From NCBI GenBank assembly GCA_963924565.1, contig OZ004615.1, forward strand, positions 20,522,001 through 20,586,000: a stretch of 64,000 bases of DNA, read 5' to 3'. The stretch is from Ascidiella aspersa. Lineage: Eukaryota. The notes below the pieces were generated by a model. It was not told the DNA's origin and ran no database searches. It saw nothing but the letters and a program-made list of their open reading frames with translations. The number at the start of each line of letters is the position of its first letter. The stretch's first letter is position 1. This document shows, in pieces, positions 6,601-58,100 of this stretch. A program made the translations under genes and the position numbers.

Positions 6601-7026
6601 ATAAGTAGGAAAAGCAAAATGTTAGCCCATCATTTTACGTAAAAATTGAGGCTCATTCCAAGTTGGGATGAAATTAATTATGGCAAAGTTTAGTTGGGCA
6701 ACTTAGTAGTCTATTGGTCACGAAAAATTTTCCCAACTACTCGGGTCGCTTAAATACTCAATTACCATCATTTGTCGATTGACTTAAAATGATAAAAATT
6801 ATAAATAACAATCTATCTCGGTTTTATTTTTTTCTCCAAAAAACACGAGCTATGGATGCCCAGTAGCTTACAGCCAAATCGGCGGAGCTACGACCATGGT
6901 GGTGGCAAATAGGGCACTATCCATACAGCATATTGGTAATACCCCGCAGTTTACAAATATACCACTGAGCAAAACACCCTATAGTTACTCACTTAACGTT
7001 AAATTGTCTTACTTCTACGCCTATAG

Positions 7027-34100: not shown

Positions 34101-37100
34101 TAAAAAATACATAAATCGTTAAGAAACCGGGGTTCAGTGGCCCCTAGCGATTTAGAATGGCCTAATTTTGCAACACAAATAGACCGACATAATTGTACAA
34201 CACTTACAATCGGGTCGTACGCGGAGCCGATTGGTTATTGACCGTCGGTGCCGTTGGCGCGTTCGAACTGCGCTTGCAGCAAGAACCGAGCTTACACAGA
34301 GCGCCGCTGATGGTGTCGGAATAAATCAAAGGGTTCAGGGCGCTGTTGGTCGGCAGTAGGATCCCGGCGCTTATAGCGTACACGACCGGGGGCAAATGCA
34401 CCCCCGACAGCTGCACAAAGGCCAGGGTGCAGAGCGGAACCCAGCAAGCAAAGTCGGTGAGAATAAGACGCGAAATGCGCGCCTGCATTTTCCTGGCCCG
34501 CTTGCTAACGGTGCCAGCCATTCGCACGCTGACGCGGTAGATGGCAAAGTAGCAGACGACCATGTAGAGGAAAAGCACAAAGTTGAGACTGATTAGGAAG
34601 CAGGAGAAAACCCAACCCGCCTCTCCGACGTTGACGAAAATTCGCGGCATGCAAACGCTCGTTTCGCCGTAGTAACCGATGTCGCCCTTGATGGGCAAGT
34701 AAGGGATCTTGCTTTCGATAAACTGCTTGGTCGCCATCCACGACGAAGCGTTGATTTGCCCCATTCTAAACGCGAGCGCGTTTAAGTCGGATTTTTTCAC
34801 TTGGTCCGATTTGTAAAAGTAATTGGGGAACCAGACCCCTGAAACAAAGTAGCCGGAAGTGGGGAACATTAGCGGAAAAGTGGCAATCAGGGCGGCCAAA
34901 ATCCAGGACGCAACAACCGCCATTCGTCCCCAAACAATTGTAAGAGTGGAAGTGACGAAAGGTCGTAGAATGGTGACGAGGCGAAACGTGGTCATGGACG
35001 TCATCACGAACACCGAGTTTTCTGTGGAAAGCACGACTAGGACTCCCAGAAGGGAGCAAAGCCGGCTCGTGCGCCAAGACTTATCGTGAAAGCAGTAAGA
35101 GCCCGAATACTGGTCGGCCTTGACGCAAACGGTGAGAAGGTAAATGCCCATGAGGAAATCCGAAATGGAGAGGTTGAGAACAAACAGCGAGTTGTACTGC
35201 ATCGGGATTGACATCGGCTCGGCTGCCAGGAAGCTCCTCGCCGTGGTGACGGACACCACAATGTTTCCGGCGATTGAAAGCAGCGCCATCATCCAGAAAA
35301 TGGCCAGGATTAATTTGTTGCCGATCAGTTCGTACTGGGACGAAAATACGTTGACTTTTTGGCTTTTGGGAGGACACTCGTCGCTGCCGTCAGAACAGTC
35401 CCACTTGCCATCCTCGACGTCGCTTATCGGCACCGAAAGCGGCTTTTTATCCAAACAGTAAAAGCGTTTGTCGGCGCAGCGGGCCTTGGACTCGTCGGCG
35501 CCGTTTTCGCAGTCGACTCTACCGTTGCACAACTCGTCCACGTCGATGCTCACCGACACGCCGTTGACGCAGTAAAAGCGCTCGGAGCAGTTCTTCTCCT
35601 CGAAGCCGAAGGGACAAGAAGCGTTTTTGATGACATAAGCGGCCGAGTCGTTCTGCCCGTTGCAGTAGCGATCCCCCATCGGGTAATACCAGCGACAGGG
35701 ATCGTCGCAGAACCACGGCCTGGTCGAGCAGTTCACACATTCGTCGGACATGTCGGCGCACTGAGGCCGCCCGTCGCACATCACGGCTTCGATCCAACCA
35801 GGCGCCGCCACGCAACGGATCGTAGCCCTGCCTTTGGTATCGACGCAGCCGACCGTGTTGGTCTTGTCGACGCACTGGTAGCTCCTGTTGCACAGCAGCT
35901 CTTCGCTTGGGAGGCAGCCAACAGTTTCGTCGCAGTAGAGTTGGTCTGGATGCTGACAGCGCGTCTTGGACACCCCCAGCACCTTGTCGCAGACTGTTTG
36001 ATCGGCGCAGAAACACTCGTCGGAAAGGTCGTAGCAGTCCACCACCCCGTCGCACACCTGCCTGGGCGCTATGATCAGCTTCTTGTCGAAGCATTGAAAG
36101 CAGCGCATCGCGCCGTCGACGAAGCACAAGTCCGAGCCGTCTGAGCACTGCGGCAAGTCGTCGTAGAGGTTGAGCTGCGGCAGACTGCAGGTGAAAGTCG
36201 AGTACTTGGTGGCGCATTTGAAACCTGGCCCGTAGTGCGTCTCATCGCTAAAGTCGCTGCACTGGCTGTTGCCGTCGCAGAACTGACGAATAATGAGCAC
36301 CTCCTTGTTTTTGCACAACACTGGCTTGATGCAGCCGGGCTGGCTGGCGGCGGGCGGCGAAGAAATACAGGCCCATTCCGGCGTCTGCTTCCCGATCGTG
36401 TTGTTTACGTAGGTCACGGTGAGCACCGGATGGCAGTGGGTCAGCGAGGCGTTCTCAAAATGCAGCATTGCGTTTTTTGCGTGCAAATCCGGACAGCTCA
36501 TGGCCTTGGTGCTCCAATTGTCGGCGCAGTCGTTCATTCCGACCACACAGGGCTCGTCATCGCCGCTGTAGCAGTCTATCATTCCGTTGTTGACGTCGGA
36601 AGTGGAAATACACCCCTTGTCCGAAGTGCAGTTCGAGCTTGCGTTAAATATGCAGCCGCACTTGACCTGGCCGATCAAACACGCACAGCCCTTCTCGTCG
36701 CTCCAGTCGCCGCACTCGTTCACGTCGTTACAGAGCTGCCAGGGAAGCACGCATCCGTTGCTGGTGTTGCACGTCTTTTCGACAGCCTCGTAACACGCGC
36801 AAGGCGTTTCGATGGGCAGGCAGGTGCAGCCGTATTCGTCGCTCCAGTCGCCGCAGTCGTTGTAGCCGTCGCATTGTTTACTTGCGCTTACGCAGCCGGG
36901 CGATCGGCCACAACCCGGGCGACTGCACCGGCACTGGAAGCTGTACTCCGGGCAGGTGCAGTTATTTTCGTCGCTCCAGTCGCCACAGTCGTTTACCAGG
37001 TTACAGCGCCTGACGCCGGCCACGCTTTCGGCTTTACAGGAAGACAGCACCGTCGGTCGAACGCTGCAAGCGCAGCGGAAAAAGGCGCAGTCGGTTTCGT

Positions 37101-40100
37101 CGCTGCCGTCGCCGCAGCCGTCAACGTGATTGCAAACGTAGCCTCCATTCACGGCCAGCGTCCGTCCCGGGCAGGATTCCCCGCATGCGCACACGAAAAG
37201 GCTTGCACCATATGTACAGTTGCGCTCGTCGCTACCATCTACACAGTCCTTGTATCCGTCGCACACCCAAGACGACCTAATGCACCAGGTATCCCCAGCG
37301 CAAAAGGTCGAATTCGGTTTGGCGCATTTGCAGCCAAAGTTGGGCGCCAGGCACTGACAGGAACGCTCGTCCGAGTGATCCGAGCACTGGTAGACGCCGT
37401 CGCAAACCTTGTACGCTGGCAACTTGACGATGTTATTCGTGCAGCTCCGGTTTCGAGAGCAAGCGCACGTGAACAAACTTGGTCGATCATCGCAGCCCGC
37501 TTCGTCGCTCCAATCCCCGCAGTCATTGAGCCCGTTGCATTGAGCTCTTTTGTCAACGCATCCCGCCGAAGTCTTGCAGCCCGACCAGTTACAATCGCAC
37601 GTAAACTGGCTAAAATGGCAAGGACATGCCACCTCGTCGCTCCAGTCGTGGCAGTCGTTTCTTTGGTTGCAAACCTCGACCCAAGCAACGCGTCGAGTAC
37701 TGGGCGTGACGCATGTGCCGTTCCGCGCGCATGCGCAGTAGAACTGGACCGCTACAAAGTCGCAGTAAAGCTCGTCGCTTCCGTCGGCGCAGTCGTCTCG
37801 GCCGTCGCACTTGTTGATCAGCGGAACGCAGCTGATCGGATCCGTGCACTTTCCGTTTGCGTAGCGGCAACCGCACGAAAACTGACCGGCGCATTGGCAG
37901 TCGGCCTCGTCGCTTCCGTCGGAACAATCGCTTTTGCCGTCGCAAGTCTGCCGCTGCAAAACGCACACCTCAGGGTAGACGCACGTGTTGTTGTCCTGAC
38001 ACGCGCAGCTAAAATACCCAGTATCACAAGTACATCCACGCTCGTCTGTCCCGTCCAAGCAATCCAGCACACCATCACAAATCTCTTTATCGCTGTAGCA
38101 TCCTCGACCGTAGTAGCAGTGGTATGTTCTTAGCGGGCAGCCGCACTGGTAAAGGCCAGGCGCGCAGAAGCAGTTCAGCTCGTCGAAACCCTTGAGACAG
38201 TCGCCCCCGCCGTCGCAAACCCAGTTCTTAGGGATGATTTCCGCTTTGTAGTTGCCCCTGACGCTGAAGTAGTAGCCGCTGAGGTATTTGGTCCGGGCCG
38301 GGCACATGCAGTTCACCATGCTGCTAGCTGGATCCAACCGCACGGCGTTGCACCATTCTGCAAACAAAGTGGTAACCCATTTGTGGAGTTGATTTTTTGT
38401 AATACTGCAGTTTATAGGATTGTTATGTGCGACCATTACGACGTATTCTCGTGGGTCGGAATCGGAACTCGGGACTCGAGTAAGACCACGTACAACTACC
38501 CGAGTCCCGAGTCCGACGTGCGTATGCGCAGTATCAATTTTTATAACTGTTAAGGCGGCAAAATGTAAGTTGTAAAAGTGTAATAGCATATGTGAACTAT
38601 TTTTAAACCATGTAATGCGTGTGGATCAATTATGACACCAATATGAGTCGATTGCAAAAAATCCACCTTAATTTAGTTGCGTAAATGGGTAAAATACAGG
38701 CTGTAGAGTCGGGCTGGACTCGGGACTCGACAAAATCTTACATTTGGCCGGAGTCGTACTCGGGTGTATTTTTTTGGCCGGAGTCGAACTCGGGAGTCGG
38801 ACTCGGGAGTCGAACTCGGGAGTCGGACTCGGGTTGTTTTTAACCGACTCCACAGCCCTGGTTTATATAAGCGTGACTCTTACAGGGGTGCTGTATTCAT
38901 TACTTGTGTTCTAATACGCCGTGGTGTTTAGCGTGCGGTTTTGCCCCACCAGTAGATATTACACTTTTTATACGCAAAGCTAAGGAACAGGAATACGTTA
39001 AAGTGAAGTTTTGCAATTAGGGACTTGCGATAAAGTTTTTTGTTATGCACGTACTCGAACTTTTGGTTTAAAGTTGTACGACTCTCCAAACTGAAACCCG
39101 TTGACATCATTACTTTGGTCAAGTAAATCAAATTAAAGAAATTGGAAAGTCCAATGGCAATATTTTCCAAGGTTTACGGTTTGTTAGGAGGCTTATTGAT
39201 CTTCGATTTATCTGCTCAAAATTGCTTTTTATACTCAAACTAGAAAACGTTGCTTCAAAACCATATCTCAAAATGTACCAATTAGTTTAGTATGGGATCG
39301 GTACCGATACTATAGTCTAATATCGAACGAGTAGCGATACTACCACTTGGTATCGGGTTTTGGTAAATTTGCAATAAGGAGTGTCCGATTTGATCGGAGC
39401 TAAATCGATATTTAATACCAAACGGAAAATATCGACAACTGGGTGGAATAATGTTGATTCGAAACGACATTGACAAAAGTATTTCAGCGATGTTTTTTTT
39501 ACGAAGCAACATTTTGTACTTGGAGATACAATTCTCTAAAAATTGATGGGAGATTAGGATTAACGTGTGTTTTTCTCCACTTTTAATATTGGTCTTACCG
39601 GTTACATAGAATCATATTCTTGTTTAGTCAGCAAACTTTTAATAAGCAGATAAAACGAATATATATGATATAAGTACGGTTCCGATATTAATATTACGTT
39701 CTGTTAGCATCTAGGTTGGAAAACGCCTTGTCGGGTGTAACTGACTGATGCCTAATCCAACCTAAAATGCTAATGATTATCACTTTTGATTTGGTTCAAT
39801 GTCAAGTACGCTCTCTATTTTTCTGTTTACGATACATGGTCAAACCCCTTAGGGCATAACTGCGGGTTAATATTTCATCCATCGAACTATTTATGTGCTT
39901 TGTTGGCAACGACTAATACAGAAAGTCGACACAATAGGCAAAATTATATTTCAAGGGGATGTTGTAACAACGGAAAACCGATTGAAATGACAATCAAAAA
40001 ACATGTAAATAGCCAAGAGAACGGCTAAAGGTAATATCAACCTACTGTAATATTCAATCCATCCAATTGGCTCACTTCCATCCACGGTAATTTTACTTTC

Positions 40101-43100
40101 CAACAATATTCCAAGAAGTAAAGCACGGCAAAACGATGGTAGATATTGCATGAACGAACTAAACGCCGCCTTTTGCATTCCTTTGGTTCAGTCTATTCAG
40201 TTTGCTGCATTACAGTTTTCCAAACCTGAAACTACTAATGAAAAGCTTAGGCGCACAGGGAATTTGATATTAAAGGCATTATCCTGTTCAAATAAATGTT
40301 ATGACATGTTTATGCCTACGGCACTCCAACGATTCCACTTAGGCGAAAAAATAAGCCATTATATAGTCGAATAAAACTCAAACTTTAATTTCTCATTACT
40401 TTGCCTACAAACATATGACACTTCTTTTTTTGTTCTAACATCTGTTGAACAATCCACTTGCTTGCTGCCAGTGCCTGTAGCTGCTATACTTCCACCGATG
40501 TGGTTCGTTTGGCCAATACAGTGAATTTCAACCTTTTGAGGTTTACGATACTCTCTATAAAATTTGTTTTACATTGAAGAAAGTTGGTTAATTACGAGTT
40601 CTCATTAATGTCTTTGCCTCGACCAATCATCTAACTTCTTTATAGGGGAGATTGTAGAAAATTGTTCTTTCAGCTAATGTCTTATTCTGATATAAATTCA
40701 CTCGGTTTTCGTTGGCTTAAAGCCAGCAAGCAAAGCAGCCAGCTACAACCGTTCTGTTTATTGATTAGACATGACTGGTGTATATTCATATAACGCTCTC
40801 GCATATACAAGTTGAGAATTTGCATGAAAAAGAAAGGCGATACGGAAAAGCGGAAATGTTTTATAACCCGAAGCCTTTTTTGGCAGCCTGTGACAGCAAC
40901 GTGTTCACACAGGTGAAATACTTTTATCTGTAACGGAAATATGTGTCACACAAAAACATTTGTCATGTGTGAAAACAGCCGAAGCTTTGTTCTCAGAGTG
41001 ACAGCGAAAGTTTTCAATAAAAGCGTGAAAAAGTATCAACATAATGCACACTCAATAAACATTTGAAATACTCAATTAAACATCTGAAATACTCAATTAA
41101 ACATCTGAAATGACCCCAGATGCTACAACATAAATAGCATATTGGCGAACACTGCAAAAGAAGGATATATTGAATTCTGTAGTTACTATTAACTATACAA
41201 ATGAAAATATTTTTCGTGAAATATTTTTTAGGTGCAATTTACCAAATTCGTCTTTTAAATACGACAATAAACAGGTATAAACATTTAAAATACATTTTCG
41301 CGCTTTGCGCAAAACCACTTAACTTAAGATGCTTGTTAGCGCACCGCTTCGCGTGGAAACAGCAAGTTTCTTTAGAATTTAGAAACGTTGCGAGTCGCAA
41401 TGCTTTCCTGCGTTGTACGGTGGGTGAAACTTTATTACATGGCCTTGCCTCTTTATTTATTACCGCGACAATAAATTCAAATACGACGGTACGACGTATT
41501 TGGGGAACGATCGACAAATAGATTTTATACAGATGATGCGTACGGCGATATTGTTAAATTTTGGCCAGCTAACATGTTTAAATAGCAAATATAATTATTC
41601 TCTTTAAACGGTTTAACGCCTGTGGTACACTATACTTCTGCCAATGTTTTACTAAGACGAGCCACTTCGCATAATGAACGTAGCGCGCGCGGGACAATAA
41701 AGCGCAGCACGATGCCAGCCGCTTTTTCGCTTGGCGAGCTAAACAAAGCAAGCGATAAGAACGAATTCTGTATTGAAGTTTTTCTGCCGCTAGATAGGAA
41801 TCGAAAGCTACAGATAGCTAAAACGATAACGTCACAACATTTTATGTTTTTTGCCCTCAATCAGAGGCCCCTAGGGGTGCAGCCTCATAAACCTCTAAAT
41901 GCGCACCTGCAAACCACTCTACGTCATGTCTAAAAATTTAGAAGTACTGCTTTGTACAGTTGTACACTTTTACTATAAAGCTTCGGACCAATAACATACC
42001 TAACATAAAAAAAATAACGGCAGTAACAAGAAATAACACGAAAATAAATTTTCGGCACATATGACTAGAATTATCTAGTAGCCCAAGTTTTGTTTGACAC
42101 TATAGATTTTACAGCTAGAAATGTGATTTAATTTCTATGTTGATGACGTAACAATGCCACTGTTTTCCTTCCTATTGCGCAAAATGTTGCTTACAAAAAG
42201 CACATGGCGAAAACTCGTATCTTAAAGTTTTTAACTGTAAATGGGTTCTTCCTGTGCTAAATATCTGTTGATTAGTCGGATTAGGAATTTGGGAGCTTAT
42301 TAATACTACGGTTGTTTGTTTAGTCATTTATTGATAAACTTTAAACTGAAACTGAAATTTAGCTGTGCATGTTTATATCCAAGTTAATCCTGGATCCCTA
42401 ACAAGTTTCTAAGTCCAGTACATTAGTTCTGCGGTGGCCTAGACTTTTAAAACGACCGTGTTACGCCCCGGCTTCCTGGATAAACACTGCGGCAAGCTTA
42501 AAAAAGTAAAATGTTTTTTCAATTAGCAATTTTACTCATTTAACAGGGAACTTAGTGTAACCATTGTTTCGTCTATTTAAGAATTGTTTTACGATAGTTT
42601 TCACGCTTTACATAGCTTATTATTAAAATTAAAAAAAAAATTCAATGTCTTTGTTTTATCTATCATAAACGACGAAGCTTTAACGTAAAAAAGCATAAAT
42701 ATTTATCAAAGCGGAGTTCGATAGTCCCTGGCGATTTAGAATGGCCTCATCTTGCGACACGAAAAGACCCACACAATTGTACAACACTTACAATCGGGTT
42801 GAATGCGAAGCCGATTGGTTATTGGCCGTCGGTGCCGTTGGCGCGTTCGAACTGCGCTTACAGCAAGAACCGATCTCACACAGAGCGCCGCTGATGGTTT
42901 CGGAGTAAATCAAAGGGTTCAGGGCGCTGTTGGTCGGCAGTAGGATCCCGGCGCTTATAGCGTACACGACCGGGGGCAAATGCACCCCCGACAGCTGCAC
43001 AAAGGCCAGGGTGCAGAGCGGAACCCAGCAAGCAAAGTCGGTGAGAATAAGACGCGAAATGCGCGCCTGCATTTTCCTGGCCCGCTTGCTAACGGTGCCA

Positions 43101-46100
43101 GCCATTCGCACGCTGACGCGGTAGATGGCAAAGTAGCAGACGACCATGTAGAGGAAAAGCACAAAGTTGAGGCTTATTAGGAAACAGGAGAAAACCCAGC
43201 CCGCCTCTCCGACGTTGACGAAAATTCGGGGCATGCAAACACTCGTTTCACCGTAGTAACCGATGTCGCCCTTGATGGGCAAGTAAGGGATCTTGCTTTC
43301 GATGAACTGCTTGGTCGCCATCCACGACGAAGCGTTGATTTGCCCCATTCTTAACGCGAGCGCATTCAAGTCGGCTTTTTTCACTTGGTCCGATTTGTAA
43401 AAGTAATTGGGGAACCAGACTCCGGACACAAAGTAGCCGGAAGTGGGGAACATTAGCGGAAAAGTGGCAATCAGGGCGGCCAAAATCCAGGACGCAACAA
43501 CCGCCATTCGTCCCCAAACAATTGTAAGAGTGGAAGTGACGAAAGGTCGTAGAATGGTGACGAGGCGAAACGTGGTCATGGACGTCATCACAAACACCGA
43601 GTTTTCTGTTGAAAGCACGACTAGGACTCCCAGAAGGGAGCAAAGCCGGCTCGTGCGCCAAGACTTATCGTGAAAGCAGTAAGAGCCCGAATATTGGGCG
43701 GCCTTGACGCAAACGGTGAGAAGGTAAACGCCCATGAGGAAATCCGAAATGGACAGGTTGAGAACAAACAGCGAGTTGTACTGCATCGGGATTGACATCG
43801 GCTCGGCTGCCAGGAAGCTCCTCGCCGTGGTGACGAACACCACAATGTTTCCGGCGATCGAAAGCAGCGCCATCAGCCAGAAAATGGCCAGGATTAATTT
43901 GTTGCCGATCAGTTCGTACTGGGACGAAAATACGGTGACTTTTTGGCTTTTGGGAGGACACTCGTCGCTGCCGTCAGAACAGTCCCACTTGCCATCCTCG
44001 ACGTCGCTTATCGGCACCGAAAGCGGCTTTTTATCCAAGCAGTAAAAGCGTTTGTCGGCGCAGCGGGCCTTGGACTCGTCGGCGCCGTTTTCGCAGTCGA
44101 CTCTACCGTTGCACAACTCGTCCACGTCGATGCTCACCGACACGCCGTTGACGCAGTAAAAGCGCTCGGAGCAGTTCTTCTCCTCGAAGCCGAAGGGACA
44201 AGAGGCGTTTTTGATGACATAAGCGGCCGAGTCGTTCTGCCCGTCGCAGTAGCGATCCCCCATCGGGTAATACCAGCGACAGGGATCGTCGCAGAACCAC
44301 GGCCTGGTCGAGCAGTTCACACATTCGTCGGACATGTCGGCGCACTGAGGCCGTCCGTCGCACATCACGGCTTCGATCCAACCAGGCGCCGCCACGCAAC
44401 GGATCGTAGCCCTGCCTTTGGTATCGACGCAGCCGACCGTGTTGGTCTTGTCGACGCACTGGTAGCTCCTGTTGCACAGCAGCTCTTCGCTTGGGAGGCA
44501 GCCAACAGTTTCGTTGCAGTAGAGTTGGTCAGGATGCTGACAGCGTGTCTTGGACGCCCCCAGCACCTTGTCGCAGATTGTTTGATCGGCACAAAAGCAC
44601 TCGTCGGAAAGGTCGTAGCAGTCCACCACCCCGTCGCACACCTGTCTGGGCGCTATTATCAGCTTCTTGTCGAAGCATTGGAAGCAGCGCATCGCGCCGT
44701 CGACGAAGCACAAGTCCGAGCCGTCTGAGCACTGCGGCAAGTCGTCGTAGAGGTTGAGCTGCGGCAGACTGCAGGTGAAAGTCGAGTACTTGGTGGCGCA
44801 TTTGAAACCTGGCCCGTAGTGCGTCTCATCGCTAAAGTCGCTGCACTGGCTGTTGCCGTCGCAGAACTGACGAATAATGAGCACGTCCTTGTTTTTGCAC
44901 AACACTGGCTTGATGCAGCCGGGCTGGCTGGCGGCGGGCGGCGAAGAAATACAGGCCCATTCCGGCGTCTGCTTCCCGATCGTGTTGTTTACGTAGGTCA
45001 CGGTGAGCACCGGATGGCAGTGGGTCAGCGAGGCGTTCTCAAAATGCAGCATTGCGTTTTTTGCGTGCAAATCCGGACAGCTCATGGCCTTGGTGCTCCA
45101 ATTGTCGGCACAGTCGTTCATTCCGACCACACAGGGCTCGTCATCGCCGCTGTAGCAGTCTATCTTTCCGTTGTTGACGTCGGAAGTGGAAATACACCCC
45201 TTGTCCGAAGTGCAGTTCGAGCTTGCGTTAAATATGCAGCCGCACTTGACCTGGCCGATCAAACACGCACAGCCCTTCTCGTCGCTCCAGTCGCCGCACT
45301 CGTTCACGTCGTTACAGAGCTGCCAGGGAAGCACGCATCCGTTGCTGGTGTTGCACGTCTTTTCGACAGCCTCGTAACACGCGCAAGGCGTTTCGATGGG
45401 CAGGCAGGTGCAGCCGTATTCGTCGCTCCAGTCGCCGCAGTCGTTGTAGCCGTCGCATTGTTTACTTGCGCTTACGCAGCCGGGCGATCGGCCACAACCC
45501 GGGCGACTGCACCGGCACTGGAAGCTGTACTCCGGGCAGGTGCAGTTATTTTCGTCGCTCCAGTCGCCACAGTCGTTTACCAGGTTACAGCGCCTGACGC
45601 CGGCCACGCTTTCGGCTTTACAGGAAGACAGCACCGTCGGTCGAACGCTGCAAGCGCAGCGGAAAAAGGCGCAGTCGGTTTCGTCGCTGCCGTCGCCGCA
45701 GCCGTCAACGTGATTGCAAACGTAGCCTCCATTCACGGCCAGCGTCCGTCCCGGGCAGGATTCCCCGCATGCGCACACGAAAAGGCTGGCACCATATGTA
45801 CAGTTGCGCTCGTCGCTACCATCTACACAGTCCTTGTATCCGTCGCACACCCAAGACGACCTAATGCACCAGGTATCCCCAGCGCAGAAGGTCGAATTCG
45901 GTTTGGCGCATTTGCAGCCAAAGTTGGGCGCCAGGCACTGACAGGAACGCTCGTCCGAGTGATCCGAGCACTGGTAGACGCCGTCGCAAACCTTGTACGC
46001 TGGCAACTTGACGATGTTATTCGTGCAGCTCCGGTTTCGAGAGCAAGCGCACGTGAACAAACTTGGTCGATCATCGCAGCCCGCTTCGTCGCTCCAATCC

Positions 46101-49100
46101 CCGCAGTCATTGAGCCCGTTGCATTGAGCTCTTTTGTCAACGCATCCCGCCGAAGTCTTGCAGCCCGACCAGTTACAATCGCACGTAAACTGGCTAAAAT
46201 CGCAAGGACATGCCACCTCGTCGCTCCAGTCGTGGCAGTCGTTTCTTTGGTTGCAAACCTCGACCCAAGCAACGCGTCGAGTACTGGGCGTGACGCATGT
46301 GCCGTTCCGCGCGCATGCGCAGTAGAACTGGACCGCTACAAAGTCGCAGTAAAGCTCGTCGCTTCCGTCGGCGCAGTCGTCCCGGCCGTCGCACTTGTTG
46401 ATCAGCGGAACGCAGCTGATCGGATCCGTGCACTTTCCGTTTGCGTAGCGGCAACCGCACGAAAACTGACCGGCGCATTGGCAGTCGGCCTCGTCGCTTC
46501 CGTCGGAACAATCGCTTTTGCCGTCGCAAGTCTGCCGCTGCAAAACGCACACCTCAGGATAGACGCACGTGTTGTTGTCCTGACACGCGCAGCTAAAATA
46601 CCCAGTATCACAAGTACATCCACGCTCGTCTGTCCCGTCCAAGCAATCCAGCACACCATCACAAATCTCTTTATCGCTGTAGCATCCTCGACCGTAGTAG
46701 CAGTGGTGTGTTCTTAGCGGGCAGCCGCACTGGTAAAGGCCAGGCGCGCAGAAGCAGTTCAGCTCGTCGAAACCCTTGAGACAGTCGCCCCCGCCGTCGC
46801 AAACCCAGTTCTTAGGGATGATTTCCGCTTTGTAGTTGCCCCTGACGCTGAAGTAGTAGCCGCTGAGGTATTTGGTCCGGGCCGGGCACATGCAGTTCAC
46901 CATGCTGCTAGCTGGATCCAACCGCACGGCGTTGCACCATTCTGCAAACAAAGTGGTAACCCATTTGTGGAGTTGATTTTTTGTAATACTGCAGTTTATA
47001 GGATTGTTATGTGCGACCATTACGACGTATTCTCGTGGGTCGGAATCGGAACTCGGGACTCGAGTAAGACCGCGTAAAACTACCCGAGTCCCGAGTCCGA
47101 CGTGCGTATGCGCAGTATCAATTTTTATAACTGTTAAGGCGGCAAAATGTAAGTTGTAAAAGTGTAATAGCATATGTGAAATATTTTTAAACCATGTAAT
47201 GCGTGTGGATCAATTATGACACCAATATGAGTCGATTGCAAAAAATCCACCTTAATTTAGTTGCATAAATGGGTAAAATACAGGCTGTAGAGTCGGGCTG
47301 GACTCGGGACTCGACAAAATCTTACATTTGGCCGGAGTCGTACTCGGGTGTATTTTTTTGGCCGGAGTCGAACTCGGGAGTCGGACTCGGGAGTCGAACT
47401 CGGGAGTCGGACTCGGGTTGTTTTTAACCGACTCCACAGCCCTGGTTTATATAAGCGTGACTCTTACAGGGGTGCTGTATTCATTACTTGTGTTCTAATA
47501 CGCCGTGGTGTTATGCGGTTTTGCCCCACCAGTAGATATTACACTTTTTATACGCAAAGCTAAGGAACAGGAATACGTTAAAGTGAAGTTTTGCAATTAG
47601 GGACTTGCGATAAAGTTTTTTGTTATGCACGTACTCGAACTTTTGGTTTAAAGGTATACGACTCTCCAAACTGAAACCAGTTGACATCATTACTTTGGTC
47701 AAGTAAATCAAATTTTTTTAGGAAAGTCCAATGGCAATATTTTCTAAGGTTTACGGTTTGTTAGGAGGCTTATTGATCTTCGATTTATCTGCTCAAAATT
47801 GCTTTTTATACTCAAACTAGAAAACGTTGCTTCAAAACCATATCTCAAAATGTACCAATTAGTTTAGTATGGGATCGGTACCGATACTATAGTCTAATAT
47901 CGAACGAGTAGCGATACTACCACTTGGTATCGGGTTTTGTTAAATTTGCAATAAGGAGTGTCCGATTTGATCGGAGCTAAATCGATATTTAATACCAAAC
48001 GGAAAATATCGACAACTGGGTGGAATAATGTTGATTCGAAACGACATTGACAAAAGTATTTCAGCGATGTTTTTTTTACGAAGCAACATTTTGTACTTGG
48101 AGATACAATTCTCTAAAAATTGATGGGAGATTAGGATTAACGTGTGTTTTTCTCCACTTTTAATATTGGTCTTACCGGTTACATAGAATCATATTCTTGT
48201 TTAGTCAGCAAACTTTTAATAAGCAGACAAAACGAATATATATGATATAATGACGGTTCCGATATTAATATTACGTTCAACGTTCTGTTAGCATCTAGGT
48301 TAAAAAACGCCTTGTCGGGTGTAACTGACTGATGCCTAATCCAACCTAAAATGCTAATGATTATCACTTTTGATTTGGTTCAATGTCAAGTACGCTCTCT
48401 ATTTTTCTGTTTACGATACATGGCTACAAGTCAAACCCCTTAGGGCATAACTGCGGGTTAATATTTCATCCATCGAACTATTTATGTGCTTTGTTGGCAA
48501 CGACTAATACAGAAAGTCGACACAATAGGCAAAATTATATTTCAAGGGGATGTTGTAACAACGGAAAACCGATTAAAATGACAATCAAAAAACATGTAAA
48601 TAGCCAAGAGAACGGCTAAAGGTAATATCAACCTACTGTAATATTCAATCCATCCAATTGGCTCACTTCCATCCACGGTAATTTTACTTTCCAACAATAT
48701 TCCAAGAAGTAAAGCACGGCAAAACGATGGTAGATATTGCCTGAACGAACTAAACGCCGCCTTTTGCATTCCTTTGGTTCAGTCTATTCAGTTTGCTGCA
48801 TTACAGTTTTCCAAACCTGAAACTACTAATGAAAAGCTTAGGCGCACAGGGAATTTGATATTAAAGGCATTATCCTGTTCAAATAAATGTTATGACATGT
48901 TTATGCCTACGGCACTCCAACGATTCCACTTAGGCGAAAAAATAAGCCATTATATAGTCGAATAAAACTCAAACTTTAATTTCTCATTACTTTGCCTACA
49001 AACATATGACACTTCTTTTTTTGTTCTAACATCTGTTGAACAATCCACTTGCTTGCTGCCAGTGCCTGTAGCTGCTATACTTCCACCGATGCGGTTCGTT

Positions 49101-52100
49101 TGGCCAATACAGTGAATTTCAACCTTTTGAGGTTTACGATACTCTCTATAAAATTTGTTTTACATTGAAGAAAGTTGGTTAATTACGAGTTCTCATTAAT
49201 GTCTTTGCCTCGACCAATCACCTAACTTCTTTATAGGGGAGATTGTAGAAAATTGTTCTTTCAGCTAATGTCTTATTCTGATATAAATTAACTCGGTTTT
49301 CGTTGGCTTAAAGCCAGCAAGCAAAGCAGCCAGCTACACCCGTTCTGCTTATTGATTAGACATGACTAATGTATATTCATATAACGCTCTCGCATATACA
49401 AGTTGAGAATTTGCATGAAAAAGAAAGGCGATACGGAAAAGCGGAAATGTTTTATAACCCGAAGCCTTTTTTGGCAGCCTGTGACAGCAACGTGTTCACA
49501 CAGGTGAAATACTTTTATCTGTAACAGAAATATGTGTCACACAAAAACATTTGTCATGTGTGAAAACAGCCCAAGCTTTGTTCTCAGAGTGACAGCGAAA
49601 GTTTTCAATAAAAGCGTGAAAAAGTATCAACATAATGCACACTCAATAAACATTTGAAATACTCAATTAAACATCTGAAATACTCAATTAAACATCTGAA
49701 ATGACCCCAGATGCTACAACATAAATAGCATATTGGCGAACACTGCAAAAGAAGGATATATTGAATTCTGTAGTTACTATTAACTATACAAATGAAAATA
49801 TTTTTCGTGAAATATTTTTTTAGGTGCAATTTACCAAATTCGTCTATTAAATACGACAATAAACAGGGATAAACATTAAAAATACATTTTCGCGCTTTGC
49901 GCAAAATCACTTAACTTAAGCTGCTTGTTAGCGCACCGCTTCGCGTGGAAACAGCAAGTTTCTTTACAATTTAGAAACGTTGCGAGTCACAATGCTTTCC
50001 TGCGTTGTACGGTGGGTGAAACTTTATTACATGGCCTTGCCTCTTTATTTATTACCGCGACAATAAATTCAAATACGACGGTACGACGTATTTGGGGAAC
50101 GATCGACAAATAGATTTTATACAGATGATGCGTACGGCGATATTGTTAAATTTTGGCCAGCTAACATGTTTAAAAAGCAAATGTAATTATTCTCTTTAAA
50201 TGGTTTAACGCCTGTGGTACACTATACTTCTGCCAATGTTTTACTAAGACGAGCCACTTCGCATAATGAACGTAGCGCGCGTGGGACAATAAAGCGCAGC
50301 ACGATGCTAGCCGCTTTTTCGCTTGGCGAGCTAAACAAAGCAAGCGATAAGAACGAATTCTGTATTGAAGTTTTTCTGCCGCTAGATAGGAATCGAAACC
50401 AACAAACAGCTAAAACGATAACGTCACAACATTTTATGTTTTTTGCCCTCAATCAGAGGCCCTAGGGGTGCAGCCTCATAAACCTCTAACCATAACACCA
50501 AACAAAATAACGGCAATAACAAGAAATGACCCGAAAATAAATTTTTGCCCAAGTCTTGTTAGGACACTATAGATTTTACAGCTAGAAATGTGATTTAATT
50601 TCTATGTTGATGACGTAACAAAAATGTTGCTTACAAAAAGCACATGGCGCAAACTCGTATCTTAAAGTTTTTGGTAAATGGGTTCTTCCTGTGCTAGATA
50701 TCTGTTGATTAGTCGGATTAGGAATTTGGGAGCTTATTAATATTACGGTTGTTTGTTTAGTCATTTATTGATAAACTTTAAACTGAAAGTGAAATTTAGC
50801 TGTGCATGTTTATATCCAAGTTAATCCTGGATCCCTAACAAGTTTCTAAGTCCAGTACATTAGTTCTGCGCTGGCCTAGACTTGGAAAACGACCGTGTTA
50901 CGCACCGGCTTCCTGGATAAACACTGCGGCAAGCTTAAAAAGTAAAATGTTTTTCAACTAGCAATTTTACTCATTTAACAGGGAACTTAGTGTAACCATT
51001 GTTTCGTCGCTTTACATAGCTTATTGTTAAAATTAAAAAACAAATTCAATGTCTTTATTTTATCCATCATAAACGACGAAGCTTTAACGTAAAAAAGCAT
51101 AAATATTTATCAAAGCGGAGTTCGATAGTCCCTGGCGATTTAGAATGGCCTAATCTTGCGACTCGAATAGACCCACACAATTGTATACAACACTTACAAT
51201 CGGGTTGAATGCGAAGCCGATTGGTTATTGGCCGTCGGTGCCGTTGGCGCGTTCGAACTGCGCTTACAGCAAGAACCGATCTTACACAGAGCGCCGCTGA
51301 TGGTTTCGGAGTAAATCAAAGGGTTCAGGGCGCTGTTGGTCGGCAGTAGGATCCCGGCGCTTATAGCGTACACGACCGGGGGCAAATGCACCCCCGACAG
51401 CTGCACAAAGGCCAGGGTGCAGAGCGGAACCCAGCAAGCAAAGTCGGTGAGAATAAGACGCGAAATGCGCGCCTGCATTTTCCTGGCCCGCTTGCTAACG
51501 GTGCCAGCCATTCGCACGCTGACGCGGTAGATGGCAAAGTAGCAGACGACCATGTAGAGGAAAAGCACAAAGTTGAGGCTTATTAGGAAGCAGGAGAAAA
51601 CCCAACCCGCCTCTCCGACGTTGACGAAAATTCGCGGCATGCAAAGACTCGTTTCGCCGTAGTAACCGATGTCGCCCTTGATGGGCAAATAGGGGATCTT
51701 GCTTTCGATAAACTGCTTGGTCGCCATCCACGACGAAGCGTTGATTTGCCCCATTCTTAACGCGAGCGCATTCAAGTCGGCTTTTTTCACTTGGTCCGAT
51801 TTGTAAAAGTAATTGGGGAACCAGACTCCTGACACAAAGTAGCCGGAAGTGGGGAACATTAGCGGAAAAGTGGCAATCAGGGCGGCCAAAATCCAGGACG
51901 CAACAACCGCCATTCGTCCCCAAACAATTGTAAGAGTGGAAGTGACGAAAGGTCGTAGAATGGTGACGAGGCGAAACGTGGTCATGGAGCAAAGCCGGCT
52001 CGTGCGCCAAGACTTATCGTGAAAGCAGTAAGAGCCCGAATATTGGGCGGCCTTGACGCAAACGGTGAGAAGGTAAACGCCCACGAGGAAATCCGAAATG

Positions 52101-55100
52101 GACAGGTTGAGAACAAACAGCGAGTTGTACTGCATCGGGATTGACATCGGCTCCGCTGCCAGGAAGCTCCTCGCCGTGGTGACGAACACCACAATGTTTC
52201 CGGCGATCGAAAGCAGCGCCATCAGCCAGAAAATGGCCAGGATTAATTTGTTGCCGATCAGTTCGTACTGGGACGAAAATACGGTGACTTTTTGGCTTTT
52301 GGGAGGACACTCGTCGCTGCCGTCAGAACAGTCCCACTTGCCATCCTCGACGTCGCTTATCGGCACCGAAAGCGGCTTTTTATCCAAGCAGTAAAAGCGT
52401 TTGTCGGCGCAGCGGGCCTTGGACTCGTCGGCGCCGTTTTCGCAGTCGACTCTACCGTTGCACAACTCGTCCACGTCGATGCTCACCGACACGCCGTTGA
52501 CGCAGTAAAAGCGCTCGGAGCAGTTCTTCTCCTCGAAGCCGAAGGGACAAGAGGCGTTTTTGATGACATAAGCGACCGAGTCGTTCTGTCCGTCGCAGTA
52601 GCGATCCCCCATCGGGTAATACAAGCGACAGGGATCGTCGCAGAACCACGGCCTGGTCGAGCAGTTCACACATTCGTCGGACATGTCGGCGCACTGAGGC
52701 CGTCCGTCGCACATCACGGCTTCGATCCAACCAGGCGCCGCCACGCAACGGATCGTAGCCCTGCCTTTGGTATCGACGCAGCCGACCGTGTTGGTTTTGT
52801 CGACGCACTGGTAGCTCCTGTTGCACAGCAGCTCTTCGCTTGGGAGGCAGCCAACAGTTTCGTTGCAGTAGAGTTGGTCAGGATGCTGACAGCGTGTCTT
52901 GGACGTCCCCAGCACCTTGTCACAGATTGTTTGATCGGCACAAAAGCACTCGTCGGAAAGGTCGTAGCAATCCACCACCCCGTCGCACACCTGTCTGGGC
53001 GCTATTATCAGCTTCTTGTCGAAGCATTGGAAGCAGCGCATCGCGCCGTCGACGAAGCACAAGTCCGAGCCGTCCGAGCACTGCGGCAAGTCGTCGTAGA
53101 GGTTGAGCTGCGGCAGGCTGCAGGTAAAAGTCGAGTACTTGGTGGCGCATTTGAAACCCGGCCCGTAGTGCGTCTCATCGCTAAAGTCGCTGCACTGGCT
53201 GTTGCCGTCGCAGAACTGACGAATAATGAGCACCTCCTTGTTTTTGCACAACACTGGCTTGATGCAGCCGGGCTGGCTGGCGGCGGGCGGCGAAGAAATA
53301 CAGGCCCATTCCGGCGTCTGCTTCCCGATCGTGTTGTTTACGTAGGTCACGGTGAGCACTCGATAGCAGTGGGTCAGGGAGGCGTTCTCAAAATGCAGCA
53401 TTGCGTTTTTTGCGTGCAAATCCGGACAGCTCATGGCCTTGGTGCTCCAATTGTCGGCGCAGTTGTTCATTCCGACCACACAGGGCTCGTCATCGCCGCT
53501 GTAGCAGTCTATCATTCCGTTGTTGACGTCGGAAGTGGAAATACACCCCTTGTCCGAAGTGCAGTTCGAGCTTGCGTCAAATATGCAGCCGCACTTGACC
53601 TGGCCGATCAAGCACGCACAGCCCTTTTCGTCGCTCCAGTCGCCGCACTCGTTCACGTCGTTACAGAGCTGCCAGGGAAGCATGCATCCGTTGCTGGTGT
53701 TGCACGTCTTTTCGACAGCCTCGTAACACGCGCAAGGCGTTTCGATGGGCAGGCAGGTGCAGCCGTATTCGTCGCTCCAGTCGCCGCAGTCATTGTAGCC
53801 GTCGCATTGTTTACTTGCGCTTACACAGCCGGGCGATTGACCGCAACCCGGGCGACTGCACCGGCACTGGAAGCTGTACGCCGGGCAGGTGCAGTTGTTT
53901 TCGTCGCTCCAGTCGCCACAGTCGTTTACCAGGTCACAGCGCCTGACGCCGGCCACGCTTTCGGCTTTACAGGAAGACAGCACCGCCGGTCGAACGCTGC
54001 AAGCGCAGCGGAAAAAGTCGCAGTCGGTTTCGTCGCTGCCGTCGCCGCAGCCGTCTACGTGATTGCAAACGTAGCCTTCATTCACGGCCAGCGTCCGTCC
54101 CGGGCAGGATTCCCCGCATGCGCACACGAAAAGGCTTGCACCATATGTACAGTTGCGCTCGTCGCTACCATCTACACAGTCCTTGTATCCGTCGCACACC
54201 CAAGACGACCTAATGCACCAGGTATCCCCAGCGCAAAAGGTCGAATTCGGTTTGGCGCATTTGCAGCCAAAGTTGGGCGCCAGGCACTGACAGGAACGCT
54301 CGTCCGAGTGATCCGAGCACTGGTAGACGCCGTCACAAACCTCGTACGCTGGCAACTTGATGATGTTATTCGTGCAGCTTCGGTTTCGAGAGCAAGTGCA
54401 CGTGAACAAACTTGGTCGATCATCGCAGCCCGCTTCGTCGCTCCAATCCCCGCAGTCATTGAGCCCGTTGCATTGAGCTCTTTTGTCAACGCATCCCGCC
54501 GAAGTCTTGCAGCCCGACCAGTTACAATCGCACGTAAACTGGCTCAAACCGCAAGGACATGCCACCTCGTCGCTCCAGTCGCCGCAGTCGTTTCTTTGGT
54601 TGCAAACCTCGACCCAAGCAACGCGTCGAGTACTGGGCGTGACGCATGTGCCGTTCCGCGCGCATGCGCAGTAGAACTGGACCGCAACAAAGTCGCAGTA
54701 AAGCTCGTCGCTTCCGTCGGCGCAGTCGTCCCGGCCGTCGCACTTGTTGATCAGCGGAACGCAGCTGATCGGATCCGTGCACTTTCCGTTTGCGTAGCGG
54801 CAACCGCACGAAAACTGACCGGCGCATTGGCAGTCGGCCTCATCGCTTCCGTCGGAACAATCGCTTTTGCCGTCGCAGGTCTGCCGCTGCAGAACGCACA
54901 CCTCAGGGTAGACGCACGTGTTGTTGTCCTGACACGCGCAGCTAAAATACCCAGTATCACAAGTACATCCACGCTCGTCTGTCCCGTCCAAGCAATCCAG
55001 CACACCATCACAAATCTCTTTATCGCTGTAGCATCCTCTACCGTAGTAGCAGTGCTGTGTTCTCAGCGGGCAGCCGCACTGGTAAAGGCCAGGCGCGCAG

Positions 55101-58100
55101 AAGCAGTTCAGCTCGTCGAAACCCTTGAGACAGTCGCCCCCGCCGTCGCAAACCCAGTTCTTAGGGATGTTTTCCGCTTTGTAGTTGCCCCTGACGCTGA
55201 AGTAGTAGCCGCTGAGGTATTTGGTCCGGGCCGGGCACATGCAGTTCACCATGCTGCTAGCTGGATCCAACCGCACGGCGTTGCACCATTCTGCAAACAA
55301 AGTGGTAACCCATTTGTGGAGTTGATTTTTTGTAATACTGCAGTTTATAGGATTGTTATGTGCGACCATTACGACGTATTCTCGTGGGTCGGAATCTGAA
55401 CTCGGGACTCGAGTAAGACCACGTAAAACTACCCGAGTCCCGAGTCCGACGTGCGTATGCGCAGTATCAATTTTTATAACTGTTAAGGCGGCAAAATGTA
55501 AGTTGTAAAAGTGTAATAGCATATGAGAAATATTTTCAATAATGACACCAATATGAGTGGATTGCAAAAAATCCACCTTAATTTAGTTGCGTAAATGGGT
55601 AAAATACAGGCTGTAGAGTCGGAACTGGACTCGGGACTCGACAAAATCTTACATTTGACCGGAGTCGGACTTGGGTGTATTTTTTTTGCCGGAGTCGGAC
55701 TAGGGAGTCGGACTCGGGTTGTTTTTAAGCGACTCCACCGCCCTGGTGTATATAAACGTGACTCTTACAGGGGTGCTGCATTCATTACTTGTGTTCTAAT
55801 ACGCCGTGGTGTTTAGCGTGCGATGCTGCCCCACCAGTAGATATTACACCTTTTACACGCAAAGCTACGGAACAGGAATTCGTTAAAGTGAAATTTTGCA
55901 ATTAGGGACTTGCGATAAAGTTTTTTGTTATGCACGTACTCGAACTTTTGGTTTAAAGGTATACGACTCTCCAAACTGAAACCAGTTGTCATCATTACTT
56001 TGGTCAAGTAAATCAAATTTTTTTAGGAAAGTCCAATGGCAATATTTTCTAAGGTTTACGGTTTGTTAGGAGGCTTATTGATCTTCGATTTATCTGTTAA
56101 ATTTTCCCCCAAAATTGCTTTTTATACTCAAACTAAAAAACGTTGCTTCAAAACCATATCTCAAAATGTACCAATTAGTTTAGTATGGGATCGGCACCGA
56201 TACTATAGTCTAATATCGAACGAGTAGCGATACTACCACTTGGTATCGGGTTTTGGAAAATTTGTAATAAGGAGTGTCTGATTTTATCGGAGCTAAATCG
56301 ATATTCAATACCAAATGGAAAATATCGACAAATGGGTGGAATAACGTTGATTCGATACGACATTGGCAAAGGTATTTCAGCAATGATTTTTTTTTTTTTT
56401 ACAAAGAAACATTTTGTACTTTGGAGATACAATTCTCTAAAAATTGATGGGAGATTAGGATTAACGTGTTTTTTTTTTGTTTTTTTTTCACTTTAATATT
56501 GGTCTTACTGGTTACATAGAATGATATTTTGTTAGTCAGCAAACTTTTAATAAGCAGATAAAACGAATATATATGATATAATTACGGTTCCTATATTAAT
56601 ATTACGTTCTGTTAGCATCTAGGTTGGAAAACGCCTTGTCAGGTGTGTGGGTTTTAAGCACAATGAAAGAATATTTATTGCAAATATAGAAACGACAATC
56701 AGTACTTACAGGTACAGTACTTACGATATACGTATAATAATTACCTCCGTAACGTACGCGATCTGGACTCCACAATGAACAGTAAGCACCGCTCAACTAA
56801 CGATTTACAACATTTCTTATATAGCCTACATCGGACAGATGTGAGTAATTACTAATTCGTTAGAAAACGCGACACACAACACCTTAGGAAGTCGGCCATA
56901 CGACCAACGAAATTACAATACGCGACGGGAAATTAGAGTGACAGCATGAGCGATTCCGCCGACAGGCTGTTTACAGGCGGCCAGAGTTGATGGGGTCACA
57001 GAGTTCCAAACAATCCGCTACAATTCACTCTCCCTGCCTTTAAGTCAAAAGGTCCGAACAAACTTCATCTTCGTGGTGTTCCTCCTGCATGTCATTGTTC
57101 ATTGGATAATAGTGTCCTCCTTGTCGGCCGGCTTCTTGTAGCACAAGTCAGGAGCGGTGGCGACCTCCGAAACATAGATGACTGTTGTCCAACGATGAAA
57201 AAGCTCGCTTCGTACAAAGAATACCTCCGTAATCGAGCTGGTACTTTGTTGCTAAACGATCTGTGTAAAAATACTTACACCGGCGTTTAACAAACATGCG
57301 AATACAAGAAATGTACAGCCTACAATGCAGAAATAGAGCCGTAAAAATTGTAATTTACTGTTCAAAGGAAAAACCGTCAGTCAAATGCCTATAGAACCTA
57401 TCGTTCTAGAATACCGAAATCAAGGAAGTTAAAGGTGCTAATCTTTGAAACTCGAAAACAAAATTAACGCCATGCCCATTTTAAAAGTAATCCCTAAATG
57501 ACAGACACTTTAACCTTGGCGTAAAGGTTAAACTAAAAAGTTACACTATTGCAAGCTTGTAACTATTGCAAGCTTGTAACCCAAATGGACATGCGACGGT
57601 ACCTCAGCCGTCAGTAAGGTAAAAAGGCATCACGTGGCCTTGAAAACATCGGGAACTATGCCCGGAATACAAACAAAACGGTCAGGTATTTTAGGTGTGA
57701 TATCTCTGATCAAACACCGTAAACCATATAGGACCAGACTGCAGGTTAGCTGCAAACGGAAATGGCACTTTAGAAGGCACAACTTCTGGAAGTGTAAGAG
57801 ATAAATTTATCTGTTCATAGGCTTAGAGAATAGTTTACGAGAGAAGAATATTCTCTTGCGTAAAGTTTCACCTTTAACTTAACAAAAAGAAACGTAATTT
57901 TGCAAATGACTGAACAACTATGCCGTAAATTTAGTTTAGCTCAAACTTGGTTTTAAATCTGCATTGATCGACCGATATGACAACATTAAAACGTGCTCAT
58001 AATTTAGCAACAACATACTTACAATGGCGGCGGCTTAGAGAGAAAAACAGGCGTGTTGCGTAAAAAATTAAACAAAGCATGTATCAATATCTGGCAATTC

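What the first reader, a model, noticed from the sequence alone, without database searches (positions are those of the whole stretch)
36540..38240. Two non-canonical LDLa module types: an inserted CxC...C disulfide loop, and paired loss of C1/C3
Canonical LDLa has 6 Cys bonded C1-C3, C2-C5, C4-C6. Here the N-terminal modules carry two extra Cys between C2 and C3 (F-x-C-x-C-x3-9-C), giving 8-Cys modules such as CDTGYFSCACQDNNTCVYPEVCVLQRQTCDGKSDCSDGSDEADC (modules 2, 3, 4, 6, 8, 11, 12). Modules 5, 7, 9 and 10 keep the extra pair but lack both C1 and C3, e.g. DDRPSLFTCACSRNRSCTNNIVKLPAYKVCDGVYQCSDHSDERSC. Pairwise gain and loss implies a new disulfide-closed loop. That loop differs in sequence and length between modules, so it is a candidate specificity surface. 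The two types alternate over modules 4-9.
Basis: partly seen in the sequence, partly recalled or inferred. Interest (0 to 1): 0.7.

Follow-up and report, generated by a model that had tools for sequence, protein, structure and literature searches.

The report
Sea-squirt LDLa module with stapled loop
In a known family of sea-squirt orphan receptors, the small calcium-binding repeats carry an extra pair of cysteines around a short inserted loop, which likely forms a fourth disulfide bond and often a sugar-attachment site, a variant I did not find described or outside sea squirts.

Summary
The modules lie in a two-exon LDLa-repeat, relaxin-receptor-like GPCR, a member of the ascidian LDLRR-GPCR family (Kamesh 2008); the window holds three tandem copies. 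Modules 2, 3, 4, 6, 8, 11, 12 have 8 Cys; 5, 7, 9, 10 keep the extra pair and lack C1/C3. Across the family, 211 of 213 distinct insert modules gain or lose cysteines in pairs. The insert occurs in Ciona, Phallusia and Clavelina, and in 0 of 3,463 modules from 306 non-family proteins. Paired C1/C3 loss alone is ordinary (29 of those 3,463). The predicted fold is LDLa plus about 9 residues; the spacing fits a duplication of the C1-C2 segment. The specificity idea is not supported: between close paralogues the 8-Cys loop is more conserved (14% different) than neighbouring segments (27-31%), and the loops are enriched about threefold in N-glycosylation sequons. Best reading: a disulfide-stapled, often glycosylated structural loop. 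Disulfides are inferred, not measured. The scan noted this receptor family before in another genome, but not this module.

The parts
40046..40178 (-). Predicted exon 1 (signal peptide, 44 codons + 1 nt, GT donor)
   Evidence: Hydrophobic ATG-started exon ending in W-x-x-Y-(Y/F), phase 1, found upstream of two window copies and five paralogues; blastn finds it for all three copies; no junction reads
34204..38357 (-). Exon 2: whole LDLa array, hinge and 7TM of copy 1
   Evidence: Open frame, AG acceptor at the same place in 9 of 9 genes checked, Pfam
38170..38352 (-). Module 1, N-cap type: C2-x-Cx with no Cy, extra upstream Cys, no C1/C3 here
37762..38169 (-). Modules 2-4, 8-Cys type
37624..37761 (-). 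Module 5, 6-Cys type (insert, no C1/C3), sequon in loop
37492..37623 (-). Module 6, 8-Cys type, sequon in loop
37357..37491 (-). Module 7, 6-Cys type, sequon in loop; folded model pLDDT 76.5
37216..37356 (-). Module 8, 8-Cys type, sequon in loop; aromatic at C4-2 kept
36958..37215 (-). Modules 9 and 10, 6-Cys type
36685..36957 (-). Modules 11 and 12, 8-Cys type
36547..36684 (-). Module 13, junction type: insert present, C4 absent (7 Cys); widespread in the family
34318..35313 (-). Relaxin-receptor-like 7TM, preceded by an F-S-S-x-x-E-L-I hinge motif
42788..48769 (-). Copy 2 of the gene (exon 2 42788-46941, exon 1 48637-48769), same module pattern
51194..60108 (-). Copy 3 (exon 2 about 51194-55290, exon 1 59976-60108), same module pattern, 19-residue in-frame gap in the 7TM

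Best explanation
These are LDLa modules of an ascidian LDLRR-type orphan GPCR that carry a roughly 9-residue insert with two extra cysteines, which likely close a fourth, intramodule disulfide and likely serve as a structural, often glycosylated extension rather than a variable binding site. Inferred bonding is C1-C3, C2-C5, Cx-Cy, C4-C6. The insert likely arose once, before Ciona, Phallusia and Clavelina split, by tandem duplication of the 9-residue unit x-C1-x6-C2, which orphaned two cysteines that paired with each other. With the hairpin stapled by Cx-Cy, C1-C3 is inferred to be dispensable in some positions (6-Cys type). Most insert modules keep the acidic calcium cage but lack the lysine-binding aromatic, so they would act mainly as a stiff, glycan-coated stalk that presents a few binding modules; ligand capture would then be relayed through the hinge to the 7TM. 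Shown: patterns, co-variation, distribution, conservation, sequon excess. Predicted: the fold. Inferred: bonds, origin, glycosylation, role.
For: Pairing: of 213 distinct C-x-C/CC modules, 162 have C1, Cy and C3, 49 have neither C1 nor C3, 2 are exceptions. Where the insert decays, the Cys at the F-x-C2 position stays and Cx and Cy go together (L042 modules 3 and 11, L046 module 10, Phallusia P0019 module 7). Insert modules stand between ordinary modules, so they need no neighbour. Fold: module 3 model pLDDT 81.4; 36 of 45 residues align to a VLDLR LA module, rmsd 0.8, Z 5.8; module 7 model pLDDT 76.5, Z 4.3, rmsd 2.1 over 34. Origin: family canonical spacing is C1-x6-C2 (207 of 254) and C2-x5-C3 (239 of 254); 8-Cys spacing is C1-x6-C2 (108 of 131), Cx-Cy 4-7 with mode 6 (48 of 131), Cy-x5-C3 (113 of 131). 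Distribution: all insert-bearing rows in one 54-row clade, SH-aLRT 87. Role: loop 14% different, dN/dS 0.37, against 31% and 0.74 for C3-C4 and 27% and 0.61 for C1-C2 in four close pairs; 46 loop sequons against 15.1 in shuffles (0 of 5,000 reach it), and 20 against 8.1 in named other species; aromatic at C4-2 in 9 of 105 and 9 of 49 insert modules against 1,513 of 3,503 non-family.
Against: No coordinates were returned, so no sulfur-sulfur distance was measured. Profile searches align ordinary C1 and C2 onto Cx and Cy, so another connectivity is not excluded. Cx-Cy spacing is 6 in only 48 of 131 modules and no aromatic relic stands before Cy, so the duplication is a fit of spacing only. Module 1 shows that Cx can take another partner. 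Sequons are in 44 of 111 loops, 0 of 6 Ciona 6-Cys loops and 2 of 24 unnamed 8-Cys loops; modules share ancestry, so the p-values are overstated. The 6-Cys loops are no more conserved than their neighbouring segment (20% each) and two small bins gave pN/pS near 1.6. The tree is a quick search with an outgroup that is not one clade. No ligand is known.
Confidence: 0.6

Rival explanations
1. The Cx-Cy loop is the ligand-specificity surface: each module shows its own stapled loop, as in a knob or CDR-like insert.
For: Loops differ in length (3-9) and sequence between positions. Most insert modules lack the usual aromatic, so binding may use another face. Conservation at each position could mean a fixed ligand rather than structure. 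The family is greatly expanded (at least 117 7TM matches), and Kamesh 2008 reports most ESTs from blood cells.
Against: Between close paralogues the 8-Cys loop changes less than C3-C4 and C1-C2 (Fisher p 0.002 and 0.02 on counts rebuilt from rounded fractions). Sequons cover many loops. The most expanded clade dropped the insert from its arrays.
Confidence: 0.2
2. The extra cysteines are real but bond differently inside the module: Cy takes the place of C2 (Cy-C5) or Cx does, with C2 bonded to the other.
For: Cy lies at the canonical C2 distance from C3 in 113 of 131 modules; HMM alignments map ordinary C1/C2 to Cx/Cy.
Against: The aromatic two before C2 is kept (F or Y in 108 of 131). Natural losses keep C2 and drop Cx with Cy. 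No canonical family module has the long C1-C2 gap that C2/Cx co-loss would leave (maximum 9). The module 7 model pairs strands 6-10 and 21-25 as in LDLa.
Confidence: 0.12
3. The extra cysteines link neighbouring modules or two receptor chains into a rigid rod or dimer.
For: Module 1 lacks Cy and has an upstream Cys in most lineages; module 13 has 7 Cys; another branch of the family has 5-Cys modules, so bonds between modules probably exist in this family.
Against: Cx and Cy come and go together inside a module. Single insert modules stand among ordinary ones. A chain of Cx(n)-Cy(n-1) bonds fails at module 2 because module 1 has no Cy.
Confidence: 0.08

Closest known systems
LDLRR-GPCRs of Ciona intestinalis (Kamesh, Aradhyam, Manoj 2008, PMC2396169)
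   Same: Tandem LDL-A repeats, no leucine-rich repeats, relaxin-receptor-like 7TM; Ciona proteins are the best 7TM hits (42-48% identity), and 9 of the 11 Ciona proteins in that list carry the 8-Cys module.
   Different: The paper says most repeats conform to the classical structure and does not describe the insert in the passages, section 14 or supplement 3 that I read. This genome has at least 117 7TM matches against 14 members in the paper.
Canonical LDLa / complement-type repeat (Pfam PF00057; LDLR, VLDLR, LRP1, LRP2)
   Same: Same predicted fold (rmsd 0.8 over 36 residues); acidic motif after C5 kept.
   Different: About 9 extra residues and two extra Cys between C2 and C3; aromatic at C4-2 mostly absent; Trp at C5+3 in 43-67% of this genome's insert modules against 2% of non-family modules.
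Type C LGRs: RXFP1/2 and GRL101
   Same: LDLa N-terminal to a related 7TM; hinge motif F/I-S-S-x-x-E/D-L just before TM1.
   Different: They have leucine-rich repeats; none of 11 GRL101- or relaxin-receptor-like proteins scanned has the insert.
4-Cys LDLa modules lacking C1 and C3 in ordinary LDLa proteins
   Same: Same paired loss; 29 of 3,463 non-family modules.
   Different: They have no compensating extra pair.

Membership tests
LDLa module (PF00057) | Profile match above the curated cut-off | tested here: met
   205 bits against 24.1, 14 stretches
LDLa module (PF00057) | LDLa fold | tested here: met
   Predicted models of both types match only LDLa-type chains among the rows listed; prediction, modest Z on a 45-residue module
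LDLa module (PF00057) | Exactly six Cys in three disulfides | tested here: not met
   8 Cys, or 6 in a different arrangement; hence a variant, not a canonical module
LDLa module (PF00057) | Acidic calcium cage | tested here: met
   D at C5+2 in 127 of 131; D/N at C4+1 in 131 of 131; D at C5-1 in 108 of 131 (the D-E anchor was part of the search pattern). Calcium binding itself untested
LDLa module (PF00057) | Aromatic residue of the lysine-binding pocket | tested here: not met
   9 of 105 and 9 of 49 at C4-2; 2 of 11 in window copy 1. The role is from PMC8239462 passages; the position is recalled
LDLa module (PF00057) | Disulfide connectivity | not testable with these tools
   No coordinates returned; inferred from co-variation
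Ascidian LDLRR-GPCR | Tandem N-terminal LDL-A repeats | tested here: met
Ascidian LDLRR-GPCR | No leucine-rich repeats | tested here: met
   No LRR family at E 0.1; the last module runs into the hinge and TM1
Ascidian LDLRR-GPCR | Relaxin-receptor-like 7TM grouping with Ciona members | tested here: met
   Best hits Ciona E 7e-116; mollusc relaxin receptor 2-like E 5e-34; tree
Type C LGR (RXFP/GRL101) | Leucine-rich repeat ectodomain | tested here: not met

The most novel reading that the evidence does not exclude
A 9-residue duplication created an ascidian-specific four-disulfide LDLa subtype that gave up the classical lysine pocket and uses a new face (stapled loop plus the Trp after C5) to bind ligands. 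Interchangeable 8-, 7- and 6-Cys versions then built a large, blood-cell GPCR repertoire for non-self sensing in sea squirts.
Probability: 0.15. Interest if true: 0.7.

Novelty: new variant of a known kind. Interest (0 to 1): 0.42.

Why it matters
LDLa is one of the most uniform extracellular modules, and none of 3,463 comparison modules had this extra pair. A lineage that added a fourth disulfide, then dropped C1-C3, C4 or the insert itself in different positions, is a natural series on how disulfides are gained and traded in a small fold. Single 45-residue modules are easy to express, so the bonding is directly testable. It also marks the ancestral state of an orphan receptor family that has expanded past 100 copies in this genome. 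It does not reveal the ligand.

Tried and rejected
Frame or assembly artefact: rejected, since the pattern is in three window copies, about 20 paralogues and other species. Hypervariable loop under positive selection: no pooled dN/dS above 1. C1/C3 loss as a new type: rejected. Loose patterns gave many false 8-Cys hits from EGF-LDLa and C6-x-C1 junctions; I dropped them by anchoring on module boundaries, and four remaining non-family hits (P0045, P0071, P0154, P0164) were read by eye and dropped. A single-module profile search gave 14,322 hits but showed only the best 150, mostly long ordinary arrays, so absence outside ascidians is not established. No PDB sequence hit showed the insert in the two alignments printed (one search printed none). 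Expression: no RNA holder listed; one RNA run laid gave depth 0-2 on exon 2 and no splice joint, so exon 1 rests on sequence alone. Literature: 10 searches found no description of the insert; most subscription papers are not covered, and supplements 1, 2 and 4 of PMC2396169 were not read. PMC13746493 has no LDL passages; PMC9974445 passages added nothing on the C2-C3 loop. No complex prediction was run, because no binding claim is made.
Full report
The gene. The finding lies in one long open frame on the - strand, 34204-38625, with LDLa repeats and a rhodopsin-type 7TM and no other convincing family. The frame is entered by a splice acceptor at 38357; a signal-peptide exon is predicted at 40046-40178 from its recurrence in paralogues. 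The window holds three tandem copies, 95-97% alike as DNA, with the same module order. The genome G000 has at least 117 matching 7TM regions (117 of 296 candidates scored). The best named relatives are Ciona intestinalis proteins. This is the LDLRR-GPCR family of Kamesh et al. 2008 (PMC2396169; I read passages, section 14 and supplement 3).

The observation. Two more types exist. Module 13 has the insert but lacks C4 and sits at the border with the conserved membrane-proximal part. Module 1 has Cx without Cy and an extra upstream Cys, as do the first modules of several Clavelina and Phallusia proteins.

Pairing. I fetched 60 stretches of G000, 20 chosen for closeness and 40 spread over the other hits. 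With 22 family proteins from the databases they gave 213 distinct C-x-C or CC modules in tandem context that keep C4: 162 with C1, Cy and C3; 49 with Cy but neither C1 nor C3; 2 exceptions. Where the insert decays, the Cys at F-x-C2 stays while Cx and Cy vanish together. Insert modules also stand alone among ordinary modules. The simplest bonding is C1-C3, C2-C5, Cx-Cy, C4-C6. This is inference; no distance was measured.

Fold. AlphaFold2 on module 3 with 72 aligned modules gave pLDDT 81.4; 36 of 45 residues align to a VLDLR module at rmsd 0.8, Z 5.8. Module 7 with 31 modules gave pLDDT 76.5, strands 6-10 and 21-25 and a lone bridge at residue 18, which fits Cx and Cy facing each other; best match Z 4.3, rmsd 2.1 over 34.

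Origin. Ordinary family modules are spaced C1-x6-C2-x5-C3. The 8-Cys modules are spaced C1-x6-C2-x-Cx-x(4-7)-Cy-x5-C3 with mode 6. Duplicating the 9 residues x-C1-x6-C2 gives this pattern and the 9 unaligned residues. It is a fit of spacing; no sequence relic was found. In the largest G000 clade the array modules share their first residues with the junction module but lack the insert, L047 keeps it throughout, and some genes lost it from the junction too. On a quick 7TM tree of 63 rows all insert-bearing proteins fall in one 54-row clade (SH-aLRT 87), and the insert-poor G000 clade is nested inside (SH-aLRT 100). So the insert looks ancestral and secondarily lost. The outgroup was not one clade, and the Styela rows were not in the tree.

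Range. The 8-Cys module is in 9 of 11 Ciona proteins, 6 of 11 Clavelina representatives examined (a seventh has only the junction type), 1 of 2 Phallusia and 0 of 3 Styela proteins; the Styela proteins show other module patterns. It is in 0 of 3,463 distinct modules from 306 non-family proteins, of which 29 lack C1 and C3. Those 306 are only the displayed tops of lists of 2,647, 30, 14,322 and 122 hits.

What the loop does. In four close paralogue pairs the 8-Cys loop differs at 14% of 125 codons (dN/dS 0.37), the C3-C4 segment at 31% of 132 (0.74), C1-C2 at 27% of 128 (0.61), the acidic core at 9% (0.12) and the 7TM at 7% (0.15); the 6-Cys loop differs at 20%, like its neighbour. Two pairs come from one subclade, and small bins vary. 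Loops hold N-x-S/T sequons in 44 of 111 distinct G000 modules (46 against 15.1 in within-loop shuffles) and 19 of 51 from named species (20 against 8.1); 6 of 12 loops in window copy 1 have one. Insert modules keep the acidic residues but rarely the aromatic at C4-2, which in LRP1 doublets is needed for lysine-based binding (PMC8239462, passages; position recalled). Together this fits a stapled, often glycosylated structural loop better than a diversifying binding loop. How the receptor is switched on is inferred from the hinge motif shared with GRL101-like receptors and recalled knowledge of that class.

Verdict. A real and apparently undescribed LDLa variant, shared by several ascidian lineages, inside a known orphan receptor family.

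Noticed in passing
window 51197-55582, 7TM of copy 3: A 19-residue in-frame gap removes part of the third helix region relative to copy 1; this copy may not signal.
   Followed up: no
window 31984-50489 and 51986-56646: Three copies at about 8.5 kb spacing, 95-97% identical including non-coding DNA; recent tandem duplication, though an uncollapsed haplotype was not excluded.
   Followed up: partly
G000, loci L050-L090: A young clade of largely single-exon LDLa-GPCRs with near-identical tandem modules (up to 29 in L071) and Lys or Trp instead of Phe before C2; several members are broken by stops or frameshifts.
   Followed up: partly
L035, L036, L037, L038, L039 and L045; Clavelina P0012: A CC form of the insert in place of C-x-C (7 modules).
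   Followed up: no
Styela P0343, Phallusia P0350, Clavelina P0353: Another branch of the family has repeated 5-Cys and 4-Cys modules, suggesting bonds between modules.
   Followed up: no
window copy 1 ectodomain and first outer loop: The predicted mature ectodomain has an odd Cys count (135) and the first outer loop has a spare Cys; they may be bonded.
   Followed up: no
window 6809-7285 (+) and 24409-24864 (-): Two similar frames that look like exons of organic cation transporter-type carriers (label recalled, not searched).
   Followed up: no
window about 38460-38860: A very high-copy repeat with short tandem units sits in the intron next to exon 2 (depth).
   Followed up: no
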